From positions 214,401-278,400 of the forward strand of contig CAWAWS010000026.1 of the NCBI GenBank assembly GCA_963785725.1: a stretch of DNA of 64,000 bases, read 5' to 3'. A model generated the notes under the pieces. The model had not been told where the DNA came from, did no database searches, and saw only the letters and a program-made list of their open reading frames with translations. This stretch comes from an uncultured delta proteobacterium. GTDB taxonomy: Bacteria > Myxococcota_A > Polyangia > Palsa-1104. Positions within the stretch are counted from its first letter, which is position 1. Each line of letters begins with the position of its first letter. Both the position numbers and the translations under genes were made by a program. This document shows, piece after piece, positions 5,921 to 12,117 of the stretch.

Positions 5921-7432
5921 TTACAGGCCGTTCAGGTGCCAGGTCTGCGCGACGGTGCCATTGCAGTCGTAAATCTGCACTTGCGTACCGTCGGCGGCCG
6001 ACGCGGCGTTGATGTCGAGGCACTTGTTGCTGTTGGTGTTGATGAACTCGACGTTGCCGCCACCGACGTCGACGATGTTGAACGACTGCGCGCCCGTGCC
6101 GTTGCAGTCCCACAGCTGCGCCTTGGTCAGGTCGGCCGTGCCCGACGCAGAGATGTCGACGCACTTGTTGCTGTTGTCATTGACGATCTGGTAGTTGCCA
6201 TTGGCGACGGCGACCTTGTGGAACGTCTGCGCGGCCGTGCCGTTGCAGGTCCACTCTTGGATCTTGGTGCCGTCGGCCGTGCCCGCGCCGTTGACGTCGA
6301 GGCACTTGCCGCTGAAGGGCGCGGTGATCGTGCCCGAGCCGCCGCCGCCGCGCGAGCCGCCGAACGTCACGGTGAAGTTGTTGCCCGAATTCGAGGTCGT
6401 CCAATTGCCGCCGCAATTGGCCAGCGAGTTGATGACCCAGTTGGTCCACGACAGGCCCGGAACATTGATGCCGTTGCCGTTGATGTCGCTGATGGCGAAG
6501 TTGTCGTACGTGAGCTGGCCGGTCGTCGGCACCTGATCGCATGACGTCAGCGAGTAGACCTCGAGCACGCCGCCGAAGATCCAGTCGTGCGGGTGGCCGA
6601 ACGACGACGTATCGAACTCCGACGCCTGGCCGGTGCGCTCGTCTTTGGTCTCGATATGCCAATTGTCGCAGATGCCGGTGTCGGAGTGGCAGCTGGTTCC
6701 CGTGTTGGTGCCGAGGATGGTGTCGCCGGGGTTGACCGGGACCGAGTCGCCGTATTCGGCGTTGCCGCCGCCTTCACAGCAGTTCCAGCTCTGCACGAAC
6801 CACTGCGCGTTCTCGTAGGCGAGCACCGGCTGCAAGATGGTGCCGCCGTCTTTGCCGTCGAGCGTCTCGGTGCCCGGGAAGAAGAAGAGCACCTGGCCCG
6901 CCTGCGCCGGCGTCGGCGGCACGACCCAGCTCGTCTGCAGTCGCGAGACGCCGGGATTGAAGGTCGAATATTGCGCCAGCGACCAGCCTTCGACATCGGC
7001 CTCGGCGTCGAGCGGCTTGACGACGGGCAGCGTGTCCGGCTTGACCGCCGGCTGCGCCCCGCCGATGCCGGGCGCGTAGTTCATCCTCCCCGCAGCGGCC
7101 GCGATGGTCGGCTTGCCGGCGGCGTCGAAGTGCGGATAGGAGCAGACCGACGTCGCGCGCGCCTTGCCGGTCTGCGCGACGATGGTGCCGTTGGTTCCCA
7201 GCGTCTCGTTGCCGTTGACGTGCACGAGGCACGACGGGTGGAAGTAGCCGACCGGCGTCGCCACGTAACCCGCGGGAACGCCCGCCGGCAGGACCGGAGG
7301 CCGCGCGACGATGGCCTGGCTGCTCGAGCCTTCGGAGCCGGCGCCGGAGATCTCGCCGTTACATCCCAGTCCTGCGATGCTCATCGACAACGCCAACGCG
7401 GCCAGTGCCTTCGGTACGGTCCAATGATTCAT
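5921..7432 (-). CDS. Lipoprotein: uncharacterised beta-sandwich (possible glutamic peptidase-like) domain plus C-terminal ricin B lectin
   Basis: GGAGG RBS; lipobox GLGC; three KCLD/KCVD...CNGT.AQ ricin subrepeats. Confidence 0.8.
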   Translation of the reverse strand: MNHWTVPKALAALALSMSIAGLGCNGEISGAGSEGSSSQAIVARPPVLPAGVPAGYVATPVGYFHPSCLVHVNGNETLGTNGTIVAQTGKARATSVCSYPHFDAAGKPTIAAAAGRMNYAPGIGGAQPAVKPDTLPVVKPLDAEADVEGWSLAQYSTFNPGVSRLQTSWVVPPTPAQAGQVLFFFPGTETLDGKDGGTILQPVLAYENAQWFVQSWNCCEGGGNAEYGDSVPVNPGDTILGTNTGTSCHSDTGICDNWHIETKDERTGQASEFDTSSFGHPHDWIFGGVLEVYSLTSCDQVPTTGQLTYDNFAISDINGNGINVPGLSWTNWVINSLANCGGNWTTSNSGNNFTVTFGGSRGGGGSGTITAPFSGKCLDVNGAGTADGTKIQEWTCNGTAAQTFHKVAVANGNYQIVNDNSNKCVDISASGTADLTKAQLWDCNGTGAQSFNIVDVGGGNVEFINTNSNKCLDINAASAADGTQVQIYDCNGTVAQTWHLNGL

Positions 7433-7898
7433 TGAGCGCCTCCGTTTGTGCAGCGACTTCGATTGACTGCTCGTCTCGGCGACCGCGATGGGCGGAGCCA
7501 CGTCCTGCGAATCGAGCAGCGCGACAAGTCAGGGCGCGTGCGTGGACGAGCTGCGAGCACGGTCGGCTCGTCAACCGGCGATGTCCACTTCCACGGTTCC
7601 GCAGTCTGCAGTCACAACGAGCTGCACCGCGCCGAGACACTTTCGATCGCGTGCAGGAGCAACTGTCGCGCCACGCTGGGCTGCCGCGAGGCCCACGTGG
7701 GACAACGGCTTAGCGGCGCTCCTCGCGACAATCCGCGAGCGAGAGAATCCCCCACCTGTATCGCATCGGAAGCGAATTCACGTGGATCTGCCTTGGATGT
7801 CGGGAAAGATGATTGGCCGATATCGAATCGTCGTCGTCCTCAGATACAGACACCGACTCGAGCGGCCGAATCGGAAATGGGGCAATGCGGCGCGGCGA

Positions 7899-9559
7899 TT
7901 AGGGCTCGAGCGATCGGACGTGCGCACGCAGTCGCGAGACCCGCGCCAGCGCTGCATCGACGGCGGCGGCGCCTTCGGCGTGGCTGGCGCGTGCGAGATC
8001 GAGCGCACGCTCGGCCGAGTCAGACACCGCGCGCAGTCGGGACCGGATCTCCGCTTCCAGCGTGCGCCGACTCTCGAGCACCCGCTCGATGAGGTCGTTC
8101 TGCAGGCGCGCGCTGTTCGTTTCCAGCATGTGTTGGAGGTAGGCTGCGGCGTCCTTCTCGATCGCCGCGAGCGATCGGCGCCGCGGCCGCACGGCATCGG
8201 CGATGCGCGTCCACACCGACTCGGGGACGACGGTCAACAGCTCGTGAAGGAAGAAGCGGCTCTTCACTCGAAATCCTTCGCCCATGATCGTCGGCGACAG
8301 TCCGCGGATGGGGCTCGCCGACAGAAAGCGGTTCGCCAGATCGACGAAGCGTTGCATCGACTCGCGGTAGAGCGCTTCGGCCGCCGCCTCCTCGTCGTGG
8401 AGCCGTGGCTCGAGCGAGTCTTTGGAGAGCTGTTGCGCGAGCGCGATCGCTCGTTGACGCAAGGCCGCGCCGCGCTCCTCGGTCGCGGCCAGCGCGACCG
8501 CCAGCGCCCGGAGGGTCGCGGCTCGCGCTTCGGCCAAGAAGGTCGCGCGCCGCCGGTCGAAGGTCGCATTCAGCCGCTCCTGCTCGGCGGTCATGCGGTG
8601 GCCGAGCTCGGCAAGGGCCGTCTCGGCCTCGGCCACACAGCGCTTGAGCGCGACGATGCGCTGCTCCGAGTCGGCGACCGGACGCGACAGCGCGCCCTGT
8701 CGTTCGTCGAGCTCGTGCAAGAGCTGCTGCGCGAGCAGCGAAAGGCCGCGCTCCTGCGCGAGGCGGACAGATCGGCTCCCGCGTGCGCGGCGAGCGTGCA
8801 CAGCGCCGCGTGCAGCTGTCGCCAGTCGTAGGTCTCGAGCCCGCGCAAGCGCTCCGTCGCGCTCACCTCGAACACCGGCGCCGCGCGACCGAGACGTTGG
8901 CCGACGATGCGCTGCGTGAACGCGATCGCCTGCCGGCGCGCGACCTCGCTCATGCGATCGGCCTTGTTGAGCACGAAGAGCAGCTGGCGAACGTGCTCGG
9001 CGACGGCGACGACCAAGTCCAGCTCGTCGCCGGAGATCGGCGGGTCGGCGCCCACGACAATCAGCGCCACGTCGATGTGGTGCAAAAAGCCGCGAGTCAC
9101 CGCCGTATTCCCTGCGAAGACCGACCCGATCCCCGGCGTGTCGACGAGGCACAGGCCCGACGCCAAGAGCGGGCTCGGCGTCGACAGCTCGACGAGGGCG
9201 ACGCCTTTGACGTTCTCGGGATTGGCGCTCTCGCAGACGAACTGTTCGATGTCGTCGGGATCGATGTCCTGCCATTGCCCGCTGACGAATCGGACGCGGG
9301 CGTGCGCGGCGCCTTCGCGAACGAGGGTGACCGCCGACGTCACGGGAATGACGCCGACGGGCAGGCGCTCGCGTCCGATGAGCGCGTTGATGAGCGTCGA
9401 TTTGCCGCGTTTGAATTGGCCGATGCAGGCGACGTAGAACAGTCCCTCGGCCGTGCGCTGCGCCAGCGCCTCGGCGTCGCGCGCGAGATCGGCCCGTCCG
9501 AGCTCCTGCGCGAGCGCCGCGGCGGACCGAATCGAGCTTTCGGCGCTGCGCGCGTTCAC
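7899..9559 (-). CDS. Bacterial dynamin-like GTPase; one frameshift near 8768
   Basis: G1 GQFKRGKST, G2 PVTS, G3 DTPG, G4 NKAD; helical C-terminus continues in another frame; AAGGAG RBS before GTG 9559. Confidence 0.88.
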
Positions 9560-9611
9560 CTCGTCTCCTTCGTCAGTTGGGGCGGGCGCGAAGCCCGCGG
9601 TGTCCAATGTC

Positions 9612-9666
9612 GTAGGAGTCATTGGCCGTGCCCGATGGCACAGCGGTTCGGGCGAGCTCCACCGCC
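9612..9666 (-). ncRNA. Fluoride (crcB motif) riboswitch
   Basis: GGCGGTGGAGCTCGCC-cg-AACCGC-t-GTGCC(ATCG)GGCAC-GGCCAATGACTCCTAC; P1 GGCG/CGCC and pseudoknot GGAG/CTCC present. Confidence 0.88.
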
Positions 9667-9834
9667 TCCATGGCGCGATGGTAGGGTTCCGCCGGCCGCT
9701 CGCAACCGATCTCACGTCGCTGTCGAGGGGAGGACGACGGGCGAGCTTCTCATGGCGAGGACAGGCTGGGTTCAGCGGCGGCGGGTCAGCGTGTTCTCCA
9801 GTCATCTCCCACTTGCGTCGCCGTAGTCGGACGA

Positions 9835-10362
9835 CCAATCCAGTGCGCTTGTCCGGGCGAGCGGGTCCACACGAAGCGAACCTTGACCGGACGACCGTCG
9901 TCGTCATCGGTGCGTAGAACTCGCCGCAATCGCCGACGAAGCGCTGCACGGGGTCGGTCAGGCAACACCCGCTCTTGCCGAGATGCAGTAGATCGACAGC
10001 GCTGCTTCTTCACGTCGAAGGTGCGCGGGGCGAGTCCCGTGTAAGGCCATCGTTCTTGCCGGTGACGCGTTGGGGTAGCTGACCTCGTCGACGTTGACCA
10101 GGCCGCGAGAAACTGAGTGTGCGCATGACCAACGGGAACTCGACCACTCCTGACTGCGACGCCCGGTGCATGAGGCGCGGTTCGCATGTCCACTCCCCGT
10201 TCAGGAAGTCGAAGTCATGGAGGTCGAAGCGCTGGGCGCCGAAGTCGTGCGCGCAAACGCGGGCGCTCGCATGCACGGGCCGGCTTGGTCAATAGCCGGA
10301 GTGGATGCGCAAGCGGTGAGCACGCAGCCGGCCAGCCACACGGGGATGAAGAGCCTGTTCAT
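9835..10362 (-). pseudogene. Degraded lipoprotein of DUF1579-like type
   Basis: RBS plus MNRLFIPVWLAGCVLTAC; fragments HDFDFLNGEW, RTFD, GEFY and DDDGRPVKVRFVWT fall in different frames; 3' end missing. Confidence 0.65.
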
Positions 10363-10574
10363 TCTGTCGTTCTCCTCTGGTGTTGAACAGCGCGCCGGAG
10401 CGCTGGTCTGGGCGAAAATCGCGCTCTCATCTGCCTCGAACACTGGAGCAAGGCAAGGTCCAGGAATCGCGTGCGGCGCATTCGGCGGGCACGTTGCGTT
10501 GCGATGACAGCGGCGCACGTGATTCGCATCATCGTCGCGCGCCACCGTTCGACTACGTTGACGCTCGGAGGTTG

Positions 10575-10698: not shown

Positions 10699-12117
10699 CT
10701 AGCGCTGGGCGGCCCGCGGCTCGTCGATGCGCTGCACCGCCGGCGGCGACCACTCGTGGCTCAGCGCCGTCGGCTTCGGCATGTAGAGGCGTAGCATCAG
10801 ATTGAAGGTGCCGGCCGGCGCCGGCAGCCAATTGGCGCGCAGCGCGGCGTCCGTCGGCGGTTGGCGCTGCACGTAGAGGTCGAACGAGCCGTCGCCGTTG
10901 TAGCGCAGCGGATCGCGATCGCGCACGGCATAACGACGGGCGGGATTGTCGCTCAGATAGCCGTCGTCATCGTAGAGCGTCAGCGACCAGAAGGCGGCCA
11001 CCGGCGGCGCCTGGCCGCGCTCGAAGTGCAGGACATAGCGGTGCGAGCCGTCGAGCGGCCGACCGCGACCGTCGACGTGGGTGTTGGGATAGATCGCATC
11101 GGCCGCCAGGTTCGCGCCGAGGCCGGCCAGCGCCACGGTCGCGCGCTCGTCGTAGTTGCTGGCGAACGCGCCGACGTCGTCGGGAATCGTCCGCCAGCCG
11201 CCTTTCGCCTCGCCCAAACGCAGCGAGAGCGCGGTCAGCCGCTGACGGGCGCGGCTCGACACACCGTCGAGCGCGCGCGCCACCTCGGGTGACGGATCGA
11301 ACGGCTGGCCCGGACGCAGCCCCAGCTTGGCGAAGCGCGCCAACGCCTCTTGATCGATAGCCGACGGCGGGTTGTCGCGCATCAGCCGCGCCAGCGTGCG
11401 GAAGTAGGTCACCGGGTCGAGCTGCGCCACCGCGACCGGCGGCTTCTCTCCCTTGGCTTCGAGATCGAAGGCCTCGGCGGGCGGCAAGGCGTCGTTGCGC
11501 GCGAACGCCGTCAGCGGCTGCAGCGTGTACTGCAGCTCGACGGTGCGCGCGGCGTCCAGATCGCCGGCGCCTTTGACCTCGGTGCGGCCGATGATCCAGA
11601 TCAGGTCCGTGGGCGCGTCGACGCGATCGAGGCCGGGCGGTAGCGTGCCGTGCCAACGCGGCCCGACCAGCGCGATGTCACGGTCGGCGCCGTTGAGCGT
11701 GCGCGTGCCCGGCGCGGCGATGACGTTGGTCCAGCCGTCCAGGACCTGCAGCAGATAGAAGCGCCCGGTCACTTTGGGCACGTGCATGACGATGGGCTCG
11801 CCCGACAGATCGACCCAGGCCGTGGCGTAGAGCGTGTCGAGGTTGGGGCGCACGACCCAGCGCTCGCTCGGATTAGGGAGCGAGCGCGCGTAGAAGAAGC
11901 GGTTGACCGGCGCGCCCCGCGGTCCCGGCGTCGTCACCGCCGTCATCGACTTGCGGGTCGCGTCCATGAGCACCAGCGGGTAGCCGTAGATATAGGCGTC
12001 GTCGACCAGCGCCTGCAGCTCGCTCGGCGACGACAGCTGATCGTCGCCGGCATGCGCGGGCGCGACGGCGCCGAGCAGCAGCAGCGCCGCGAGCCACGTC
12101 AGTCTCCGATAGCGCAT
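10699..12117 (-). CDS. DUF1254/DUF1214 domain exported protein
   Basis: AYIYGYPLV, VVRPNLDTLY, FWSLTLYD, NWLPAP, LRLYMP motifs. Confidence 0.93.
   Translation of the reverse strand: MRYRRLTWLAALLLLGAVAPAHAGDDQLSSPSELQALVDDAYIYGYPLVLMDATRKSMTAVTTPGPRGAPVNRFFYARSLPNPSERWVVRPNLDTLYATAWVDLSGEPIVMHVPKVTGRFYLLQVLDGWTNVIAAPGTRTLNGADRDIALVGPRWHGTLPPGLDRVDAPTDLIWIIGRTEVKGAGDLDAARTVELQYTLQPLTAFARNDALPPAEAFDLEAKGEKPPVAVAQLDPVTYFRTLARLMRDNPPSAIDQEALARFAKLGLRPGQPFDPSPEVARALDGVSSRARQRLTALSLRLGEAKGGWRTIPDDVGAFASNYDERATVALAGLGANLAADAIYPNTHVDGRGRPLDGSHRYVLHFERGQAPPVAAFWSLTLYDDDGYLSDNPARRYAVRDRDPLRYNGDGSFDLYVQRQPPTDAALRANWLPAPAGTFNLMLRLYMPKPTALSHEWSPPAVQRIDEPRAAQR

What the first reader, a model, noticed from the sequence alone, without database searches (positions are those of the whole stretch)
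7899..9666. Fluoride riboswitch controlling a solitary dynamin-like GTPase
Seen: a full crcB-motif aptamer on the minus strand (9612-9666), a second hairpin (GCGGGC-TTCGC-GCCCGC), then an AAGGAG RBS and the GTG of a roughly 550-aa dynamin-like GTPase. No Fluc/CrcB or CLC-F exporter lies nearby. Known: fluoride riboswitches are ON switches, usually for exporters or fluoride-inhibited enzymes, and metal-fluoride complexes mimic the phosphoryl-transfer transition state of GTPases. Inference: this is a fluoride-induced membrane remodelling or repair module, or compensation for a fluoride-poisoned GTPase. The association may already appear in comparative lists, but I know of no functional characterisation. 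The ORF track hides the switch by reading through it.
Basis: partly seen in the sequence, partly recalled or inferred. Interest (0 to 1): 0.78.

Follow-up and report, generated by a model that had tools for sequence, protein, structure and literature searches.

The report
Fluoride-switched bacterial dynamin gene
A fluoride-sensing RNA switch sits directly before a gene for a membrane-shaping GTPase, and the same pairing recurs in many unrelated soil bacteria, suggesting an undescribed membrane-protection arm of bacterial fluoride defence.

Summary
The riboswitch is real: Rfam RF01734 at 9606-9675 (-), 37 bits against a cut-off of 34. Folding predicts a translational ON switch in which the aptamer's pseudoknot strand (CUCCU) hides the AGGAG ribosome site until fluoride binds. 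The link is conserved: a riboswitch lies within about 6 kb in 48 of 80 genome loci and 44 of 80 metagenome loci of orthologues (about 0.6% expected by chance), and directly upstream in 12 others. In Acidobacteriota the gene ends riboswitch operons with Fluc/CrcB, DUF190, Na+/H+ antiporter, USP, enolase and a second dynamin. This genome keeps its CLC-F exporter 195 kb away, under a second riboswitch. Five related genomes with riboswitch-linked orthologues show no Fluc or CLC-F. Best reading: fluoride-induced inner-membrane remodelling or repair; the protein's role is inferred, not shown. Ten literature searches found no report, but the original 2012 gene list could not be read.

The parts
9606..9675 (-). 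Fluoride riboswitch aptamer (crcB motif, RF01734); P1 9666-9651, P2 hairpin, pseudoknot strand 9619-9615
   Evidence: Rfam cmscan 37.0 bits, cut-off 34, E 1.3e-6; P1 4/4 pairs, covarying tertiary pair G-C, pseudoknot 4/5 pairs
9614..9618 (-). CUCCU: 3' pseudoknot strand that doubles as anti-Shine-Dalgarno in the ligand-free fold
   Evidence: MFE pairs it with AGGAG; five of six SD bases are unpaired with probability 0-0.03, rising to 0.44-0.89 when the aptamer core is held out of pairing
9582..9598 (-). GC hairpin inside the expression platform; closes the long SD-sequestering stem; no U tail, so not an intrinsic terminator
   Evidence: terminator scan found 0 sites in 7400-10000
9565..9570 (-). 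Shine-Dalgarno AAGGAG, 5 nt before GTG
   Evidence: sequence; fold
8776..9559 (-). 5' half of dynamin-like gene: neck helices and GTPase domain with G1 GQFKRGKS, G2 Thr, G3 DTPG, G4 NKAD
   Evidence: Pfam Dynamin_N E 1.1e-24; 65% identical to G012 orthologue residues 25-266; motifs invariant or nearly so in 149 homologues
8750..8780 (-). 1-nt frameshift between GTPase and stalk halves; probably an assembly error
   Evidence: tblastn frames -1/-3 and DNA alignment with G012; 7 of 62 tested genes of this assembly are split, including enolase
7899..8775 (-). 3' half of dynamin-like gene: helical trunk with an aromatic/basic tip and no transmembrane helix; stop TAA at 7899-7901
   Evidence: 44% identical to G012 residues 242-558; AlphaFold2 model of the orthologue pLDDT 93; hydropathy

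Best explanation
This is a fluoride-inducible bacterial dynamin-like protein (BDLP), a conserved and apparently undescribed member of the fluoride regulon. Without fluoride, the leader folds so that the aptamer's CUCCU strand pairs with the AGGAG ribosome site and translation is off. When cytoplasmic fluoride rises, the Mg-fluoride-bound pseudoknot takes that strand, frees the site and the GTPase is made (predicted by folding; ligand response inferred from family knowledge). The protein has a GTPase head, neck and long helical trunk with an aromatic/basic tip and no transmembrane helix, like IniA and BDLP1, so it most likely binds the inner membrane reversibly and remodels or seals it with GTP (inferred). 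Its likely job is to keep the membrane and proton-motive force intact while HF leaks in and exporters (here a CLC-F under a second riboswitch; elsewhere Fluc in the same operon) pump fluoride out (inferred). The frameshift in this copy is probably a sequencing error.
For: Rfam hit above cut-off. Tertiary pair covaries A-U 10, G-C 4, U-A 4 across 18 aptamers, the window having G-C. SD sequestration and release. Orthologue in another genus of the same family (G012) is intact, 559 aa, directly behind its own riboswitch. Riboswitch directly upstream in G254, G045, G116 and heading NaH-dynamin-enolase in G131; in G254, G116 and G131 it is the only riboswitch found in the genome. Riboswitch in 48 of 80 GTDB loci and 44 of 80 metagenome loci, CrcB in 43 of 80 and 32 of 80, against about 0.6% by chance per 12.7 kb. 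The link spans deep branches of the protein tree. Neighbours are the known fluoride genes: CrcB, Na+/H+ exchanger, USP, enolase, MutS-like, HAD (PMC11139923 passages). Foldseek best matches IniA, BDLP1, Cj-DLP1/2 at E 1e-15 to 1e-20. IniA binds anionic lipids by a tip loop and cuts membranes on its own (PMC6715688 passages); DynA gathers at stressed membranes (PMC6104087 passages).
Against: No experiment links any BDLP to fluoride; the membrane role rests on fold and precedent. The gene is frameshifted as assembled and the aptamer has one pseudoknot mismatch, so this copy may be decaying. Many BDLPs need a partner and are inactive alone (PMC6104087); the usual partner paralogue is not found in G000. 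Three same-phylum orthologues (G203, G171, G058; 31-46% identity) have no riboswitch nearby, and 17 of 80 GTDB loci show neither riboswitch nor exporter. One dynamin homologue (RdcA) is a signalling GTP sensor, not a remodeller (PMC13463826 abstract). Loci are not independent (76 of 89 tree rows form one clade, mostly Acidobacteriota).
Confidence: 0.55

Rival explanations
1. Signalling switch: the dynamin acts as a GTP or metal-fluoride sensor (GDP-MgF3/AlF4 locking a transition-state form) that relays to partners such as the PII-like DUF190 or the AAA/STAND-like ATPase, as RdcA does for DgcE, without remodelling membranes.
For: DUF190 in 48 of 80 and an AAA-type ATPase in 55 of 80 GTDB loci (families); RdcA precedent (abstract); metal-fluoride mimicry of the transition state is established knowledge.
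Against: In the window and in G045 and G116 no such partner is adjacent, and none was found in G000. The closest structures are membrane-active BDLPs; the CrfC/RdcA model matches only weakly (E 2e-5).
Confidence: 0.15
2. Exporter-independent fluoride removal: the dynamin buds or sheds membrane vesicles, or builds membrane compartments, that carry away fluoride or metal-fluoride, and can stand in for Fluc/CLC-F.
For: G012, G254, G045, G116 and G131 (92-97% complete) have riboswitch-linked orthologues but no CrcB (0 of 5) and no CLC-F-like gene. In the phylum sample 5 of 9 carriers lack both exporters against 63 of 392 non-carriers (Fisher p 0.009). Mycobacterial DLPs mediate vesicle release (PMC10240201, search listing only).
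Against: The test was post hoc, on incomplete and partly related genomes (G116 and G131 share a genus). G000 has CLC-F and Acidobacteriota operons have CrcB beside the dynamin. The riboswitch-led Na+/H+ exchanger (G045, G131) or MFS-like gene (G012) could be the missing exporter. Vesicle shedding is a poor route for a small ion at mM levels (inference).
Confidence: 0.1
3. Compensation: the dynamin has an unrelated housekeeping role, is poisoned by metal-fluoride, and is over-produced like enolase.
For: Enolase shares the locus in 15 of 80 GTDB loci; over-production of inhibited enzymes is a known response (PMC11139923).
Against: The gene is found in only 2 of 41 relatives and 9 of 401 phylum genomes, so it is not housekeeping; the other dynamin pair of G000 has no riboswitch; far more central GTPases are not known as riboswitch targets (recalled).
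Confidence: 0.1
4. This copy is a decaying relic of a transferred fluoride island: real frameshift, weakened aptamer, partners lost. (Compatible with the family-level link; it concerns only this genome.)
For: Frameshift; pseudoknot C-A mismatch; absent from 4 of 4 congeners searched; partner genes not found in G000.
Against: 6 of 61 other tested genes, including the enolase hit, are split in this assembly, about one break per 11-12 kb; both halves are otherwise free of stops; solitary intact orthologues with a riboswitch exist in G012, G254, G045 and G116.
Confidence: 0.2
5. Anti-phage or generic island gene (Leo/Eleos-like dynamin) that merely travels with fluoride genes.
For: Partial PADLOC LeoA/LeoBC matches, E 1e-5 to 1e-12; DynA has a phage-defence role (PMC12998192, listing).
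Against: Matches are short and confined to shared GTPase stretches; the riboswitch is directly upstream, often as the genome's only copy, and is kept across rearrangements and deep branches.
Confidence: 0.05

Closest known systems
Fluoride riboswitch (crcB motif, Rfam RF01734) and its known regulon (Fluc/CrcB, CLC-F, Na+/H+ antiporter, enolase, PPase, USP, MutS-like, HAD)
   Same: Same aptamer family, ON logic, and in relatives the same companion genes; resembles the riboswitch-led ppaC-uspA-eno-gpmA-crcB island of Enterobacter cloacae FRM (PMC5533749 passages).
   Different: The controlled gene is a dynamin-like GTPase; 'dynamin' and 'GTPase' do not occur in the 2024 review, nor 'dynamin' in the 2010 discovery paper or its 8 held supplements. 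Control here is predicted to be translational.
Mycobacterial IniA and Nostoc BDLP1 (PDB 6j72, 2j68)
   Same: Best sequence and fold matches of the orthologue: GTPase, neck, trunk, tip; stress-induced; IniA also works alone in vitro.
   Different: Only 16-20% identity; no transmembrane segment predicted; riboswitch control; different gene context.
Campylobacter jejuni Cj-DLP1/Cj-DLP2 pair (PDB 5owv)
   Same: Acidobacteriota operons pair this protein with a second dynamin that has an N-terminal extension of about 200 aa, as Cj-DLP1 has an N-terminal assembly domain.
   Different: The window's copy has no such partner; the extension shows no detected similarity to the Cj assembly domain; binding not tested.
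Bacillus subtilis DynA; E. coli LeoABC; E. coli RdcA/CrfC
   Same: Dynamin_N GTPases with weak matches (NCBIfam DynA E 4e-16, CrfC E 2e-5; PADLOC Leo).
   Different: All far below family cut-offs; DynA is a two-headed fusion, Leo a three-gene system, RdcA a cyclase activator.

Membership tests
Fluoride riboswitch RF01734 | Covariance-model score above gathering cut-off, full length | tested here: met
   37.0 bits vs 34, positions 1-64 of 64
Fluoride riboswitch RF01734 | P1 stem and P2 hairpin | tested here: met
   P1 4 of 4 pairs; P2 8-10 bp hairpin
Fluoride riboswitch RF01734 | 5-bp pseudoknot between P1 loop and 3' ACUCC | tested here: inconclusive
   4 of 5 pairs; fifth is C-A where 17 of 18 have U-A
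Fluoride riboswitch RF01734 | Long-range single tertiary pairs near the binding pocket (A6-U38 and A40-U48 labels recalled from the crystal structure) | tested here: met
   First pair covaries A-U/G-C/U-A, window G-C; second pair's A and U invariant in 18 of 18
Fluoride riboswitch RF01734 | Lies in a 5' leader with an expression platform giving ON control | tested here: met
   46 nt between hit and GTG; predicted anti-SD/SD switch; prediction only
Fluoride riboswitch RF01734 | Binds fluoride and changes expression | not testable with these tools
   needs in-line probing or reporter
Bacterial dynamin-like proteins (BDLP/IniA/mitofusin class) | Dynamin_N GTPase domain with G1-G4 motifs | tested here: met
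   PF00350 87.8 bits vs cut-off 27; GQFKRGKS, T, DTPG, NKAD
Bacterial dynamin-like proteins (BDLP/IniA/mitofusin class) | Neck and trunk helical bundles | tested here: met
   AlphaFold2 of G012 orthologue pLDDT 93.4, Foldseek top hits IniA/BDLP1/Cj-DLP; the window's own protein was not folded
Bacterial dynamin-like proteins (BDLP/IniA/mitofusin class) | Lipid-binding paddle or loop at the trunk tip | tested here: inconclusive
   Tip has partly conserved aromatic and basic residues; only 3 of 149 homologues reach a hydropathy window above 1.6
Bacterial dynamin-like proteins (BDLP/IniA/mitofusin class) | Intact full-length reading frame in this genome | tested here: not met
   1-nt frameshift as assembled; likely error; intact in G012
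Bacterial dynamin-like proteins (BDLP/IniA/mitofusin class) | Usually paired with a second DLP in the operon (typical, not universal) | tested here: not met
   No adjacent paralogue in the window; second DLP present in 52 of 80 GTDB loci
Bacterial dynamin-like proteins (BDLP/IniA/mitofusin class) | GTP hydrolysis, lipid binding and membrane remodelling | not testable with these tools
   needs biochemistry
Leo/Eleos dynamin defence system | LeoA, LeoB and LeoC genes together with full-length profile matches | tested here: not met
   only short partial matches, single gene
CLC-F fluoride exporter (for the second riboswitch, outside the window) | GNNL(I/V), GREGT, GEVTP signature (motifs recalled) | tested here: met
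   all three in G000:C26:29091-30398

The most novel reading that the evidence does not exclude
A dedicated clade of bacterial dynamins is a third, membrane-remodelling arm of fluoride resistance that in some lineages works without any known Fluc or CLC-F exporter, for example by shedding or compartmentalising fluoride-loaded membrane or by using metal-fluoride itself as the trigger that locks the GTPase into its membrane-active polymer.
Probability: 0.15. Interest if true: 0.88.

Novelty: new variant of a known kind. Interest (0 to 1): 0.66.

Why it matters
Bacterial dynamins mostly lack a defined inducing signal, and fluoride resistance beyond exporters is poorly understood. This pairing gives both a handle: a small-molecule inducer for a whole dynamin clade, and a new gene class in the fluoride regulon that is common in Acidobacteriota. 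It makes the membrane-repair idea for BDLPs testable with NaF. It also flags several genomes that sense fluoride but show no known exporter, which points to an unknown resistance route; that bears on engineering fluoride-tolerant hosts for organofluorine degradation.

Tried and rejected
Translation start upstream of or within the aptamer: rejected; the 130-aa extension hits none of 270 homologues and G1 spacing fits GTG 9559. Intrinsic terminator as the platform: rejected; 0 terminator-like sites, no U tail. No sigma-70 promoter-like site was found (uninformative in a 69% GC genome). Whole-leader folding z-score was only -1.44, so stability alone is no evidence. Sequencing runs: none was listed, no RNA holder listed, so the frameshift and expression could not be checked. 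Single-sequence AlphaFold2 failed (pLDDT 48); the alignment-based run was used. A conserved N-terminal docking helix that would mark paired versus solitary copies: not seen. ESM Atlas gave nothing for that domain and only unnamed dynamin clusters for the orthologue. Plasmid collection: 2 weak partial hits only. Literature: 10 searches; none of the listings links a dynamin to fluoride or its riboswitch; 'fluoride riboswitch' + 'dynamin' gave 0 papers. Baker et al. 2012 (Science), whose gene list is the likeliest prior mention, is not held, and the held supplements of PMC2864571 do not include the per-gene context list, so an earlier listing cannot be excluded. The upstream degenerate ORF was not assigned to DUF1579 by Pfam.

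Full report
Observation. Rfam finds one family at gathering score in the window: the fluoride riboswitch RF01734 at 9606-9675 on the minus strand, 37.0 bits against a cut-off of 34, E 1.3e-6, full model. In an alignment of 18 aptamers from this and related loci, P1 is fully paired, the long-range single pair covaries (A-U 10, G-C 4, U-A 4; the window has G-C), and the pseudoknot has four of five pairs; the fifth is C-A where 17 of 18 have U-A. The ORF caller reads through the switch from 9949, but those 130 extra residues hit none of 270 homologues and G1 sits at residue 47 from GTG 9559, inside the homologue range.

The gene is split. The intact orthologue from G012 aligns in two frames, residues 25-266 at 65% and 242-558 at 44%, with one base missing near 8775. 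As assembled, GTG 9559 gives 322 aa; the two halves together span about 553 codons. The assembly is indel-prone: 7 of 62 genes that could be tested against homologues are split, this one included, and enolase is among them. I put the chance of an assembly error at about 0.75-0.8 (inference). No sequencing run was listed to check it.

Switch mechanism (predicted). In the free fold the aptamer's CUCCU (9614-9618), which is the 3' pseudoknot strand, pairs with AGGAG of the ribosome site; five of six SD bases are unpaired with probability 0-0.03. With P1 enforced and the aptamer core held out of pairing this rises to 0.44-0.89; the GTG itself stays paired in that model. The GC hairpin is the inner part of this long stem and has no U tail; no terminator was found. 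This is a translational ON switch by prediction; fluoride binding is inferred from family knowledge.

Protein. Pfam Dynamin_N matches residues 43-200, with G1 GQFKRGKS, G3 DTPG and G4 NKAD conserved in 149 diverse homologues. An alignment-based AlphaFold2 model of the G012 orthologue (pLDDT 93.4) matches IniA, BDLP1 and Cj-DLP1/2 best (E 5e-20 to 7e-15, 16-20% identity, TM 0.33-0.40). The stalk has no transmembrane helix (3 of 149 above 1.6) and a tip with partly conserved aromatic and basic residues. It is below the cut-off of every named NCBIfam dynamin family and matches PADLOC Leo profiles only in part. The family is large: 1,704 representatives at 50% clustering with E up to 1e-30.

Own genome. 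G000 (88% complete) has two riboswitch matches. The second (31.4 bits, below cut-off) is on the same contig about 195 kb away and leads a CLC with the CLC-F signature GNNLV/GREGT/GEVTP (motifs recalled). No CrcB was found. A separate dynamin pair on C19 has no riboswitch within about 1.5 kb. The partner genes described below were not found in G000 by tblastn. In six of the seven other riboswitch-bearing relatives outside G012 the riboswitch locus holds a CLC-F-like gene, so the dynamin target is the exception among close kin.

Conservation of the link. Among 41 relatives the orthologue occurs in G000 and G012 only; in G012 an Rfam-positive riboswitch lies directly before the intact 559-aa gene. 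Among 401 genomes of the phylum 9 carry it, G000 included. Of the other 8, three have an Rfam-positive riboswitch directly upstream (G254, G045, G116), one has riboswitch-Na+/H+ exchanger-dynamin-enolase (G131), one lacks upstream sequence (G375) and three have none (G203, G171, G058). In G254, G116 and G131 this is the only riboswitch found in the genome, in G045 one of two, and in these four genomes the gene is the only dynamin hit. For wider scope I took the best 80 of 190 GTDB loci (titles mostly Acidobacteriota, single records titled Verrucomicrobiia, Eisenbacteria and delta proteobacterium) and the best 80 of 570 metagenome loci, and scanned them with a covariance model built from the 18 aptamers (14 of the 18 come from these GTDB loci, so those hits are circular; Rfam itself confirmed 16 aptamers in 11 loci chosen for motif hits). 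A riboswitch lies in 48 of 80 and 44 of 80 loci, upstream on the same strand in 43 and 34, within 400 nt of the gene in 3 and 5; CrcB lies in 43 and 32, DUF190 in 48 and 50; 17 and 24 loci show neither riboswitch nor exporter. Among loci with at least 5 kb upstream, riboswitch or CrcB is present in 59 of 73 and 34 of 37. Five carrier genomes hold 13 riboswitch matches in 28.3 Mb, about 0.6% expected per 12.7-kb locus. The loci are related: 76 of 89 tree rows form one clade, but the window lies outside it among 13 deeper rows of which 9 are riboswitch-linked (careful tree of 30 chosen rows).

Typical operon. In Acidobacteriota: riboswitch, Na+/H+ exchanger, USP, AAA-type ATPase, riboswitch, a 690-aa second dynamin with an N-terminal extension, CrcB, a 190-aa CxxC/CxxH protein (weak DUF6062 match), DUF190 twice, then this dynamin; enolase, MutS-like pairs and a third dynamin with a DUF6062-like tail occur nearby. 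The window thus holds the minimal form of a larger module.

Exporter-less carriers. G012, G254, G045, G116 and G131 (92-97% complete) gave no CrcB and no CLC-F-like match; the CLCs whose motifs could be read in G254, G116, G375 and G012 carry canonical chloride motifs. In the phylum sample CrcB is found in 310 of 401 and CLC-F in 23 of 401 (no overlap by my reading of the lists), so 5 of 9 carriers lack both against 63 of 392 non-carriers (p 0.009). This was noticed after the fact, in incomplete and partly related genomes, and a riboswitch-led Na+/H+ exchanger or MFS-like gene could be the exporter there. It is a lead only.

How it most likely works. Shown: aptamer, position, fold class, conserved linkage. 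Predicted: SD release. Inferred: the protein binds the inner membrane through its trunk tip and remodels or seals it, protecting the proton-motive force on which fluoride export depends while HF enters (review PMC11139923, passages; IniA, PMC6715688, passages; DynA and pair dependence, PMC6104087, passages). I give this 0.55. Rivals: signalling sensor as in RdcA (PMC13463826, abstract) 0.15; exporter-independent removal 0.10; compensation for a poisoned enzyme 0.10, weak because the gene is dispensable; hitchhiking defence gene 0.05. Separately, 0.2 that this copy is a relic.

Novelty. Both parts are known kinds. The pairing was not found in ten library searches (listings only), in passages of the 2024 review, of the 2010 discovery paper and its 8 held supplements, or of the E. 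cloacae island paper (searched for operon, riboswitch and membrane terms only). The 2012 paper with the original gene list is not held, so a bare earlier listing remains possible. Verdict: new variant of a known kind; interest 0.66.

Noticed in passing
G000:C26:28946-30398 (L003 4947-6402): Second fluoride riboswitch (31.4 bits) leading a CLC-F-type exporter, about 195 kb from the finding on the same contig.
   Followed up: yes
window 9750-10380 (-): Degenerate coding stretch with several apparent frame breaks just upstream of the riboswitch; a short piece matches a gene in G004. Pseudogene or locally poor consensus.
   Followed up: partly
G000:C29:89152-90421: Enolase is split by a frameshift, a sign of indel errors in this assembly.
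   Followed up: partly
L063 1729-3789; L026 7680-8225; L070 5320-7629: The N-terminal domain (about 140 aa, no Pfam family) of the second dynamin also occurs as a stand-alone gene beside this dynamin and appears fused to it in L070; candidate assembly partner.
   Followed up: partly
L081 9378-11084 (-); L066 4142-4756: A third dynamin with a CxxC/CxxH-rich, DUF6062-like C-terminal domain, and a stand-alone 190-aa protein with the same motif pattern next to crcB.
   Followed up: partly
L226 2096-3417 (G045:C22): Fluoride riboswitch leading a lone Na+/H+ exchanger-family gene in a genome with no detected Fluc or CLC; a candidate unrecognised fluoride exporter.
   Followed up: partly
L105 10691-11574 (G012:C552): G012's second riboswitch precedes an ORF that looks like a glutamine synthetase (name from recall of the sequence; 80% identical to G000:C15:229217-230011).
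   Followed up: no
L031 1291-1624; L123 1150-1382; L144 10618-10847; L151 2011-2306; L184 8841-9049; L191 330-553: Back-to-back divergent fluoride riboswitch pairs; single loci carry up to six matches.
   Followed up: no
G000:C19:136966-140483: A tandem dynamin pair of another family, without riboswitch.
   Followed up: partly
window 5921-7501 (-) and 10699-12117 (-): Neighbours are unrelated to fluoride: a secreted protein with a ricin-type beta-trefoil lectin domain and a DUF1254/DUF1214 protein.
   Followed up: no
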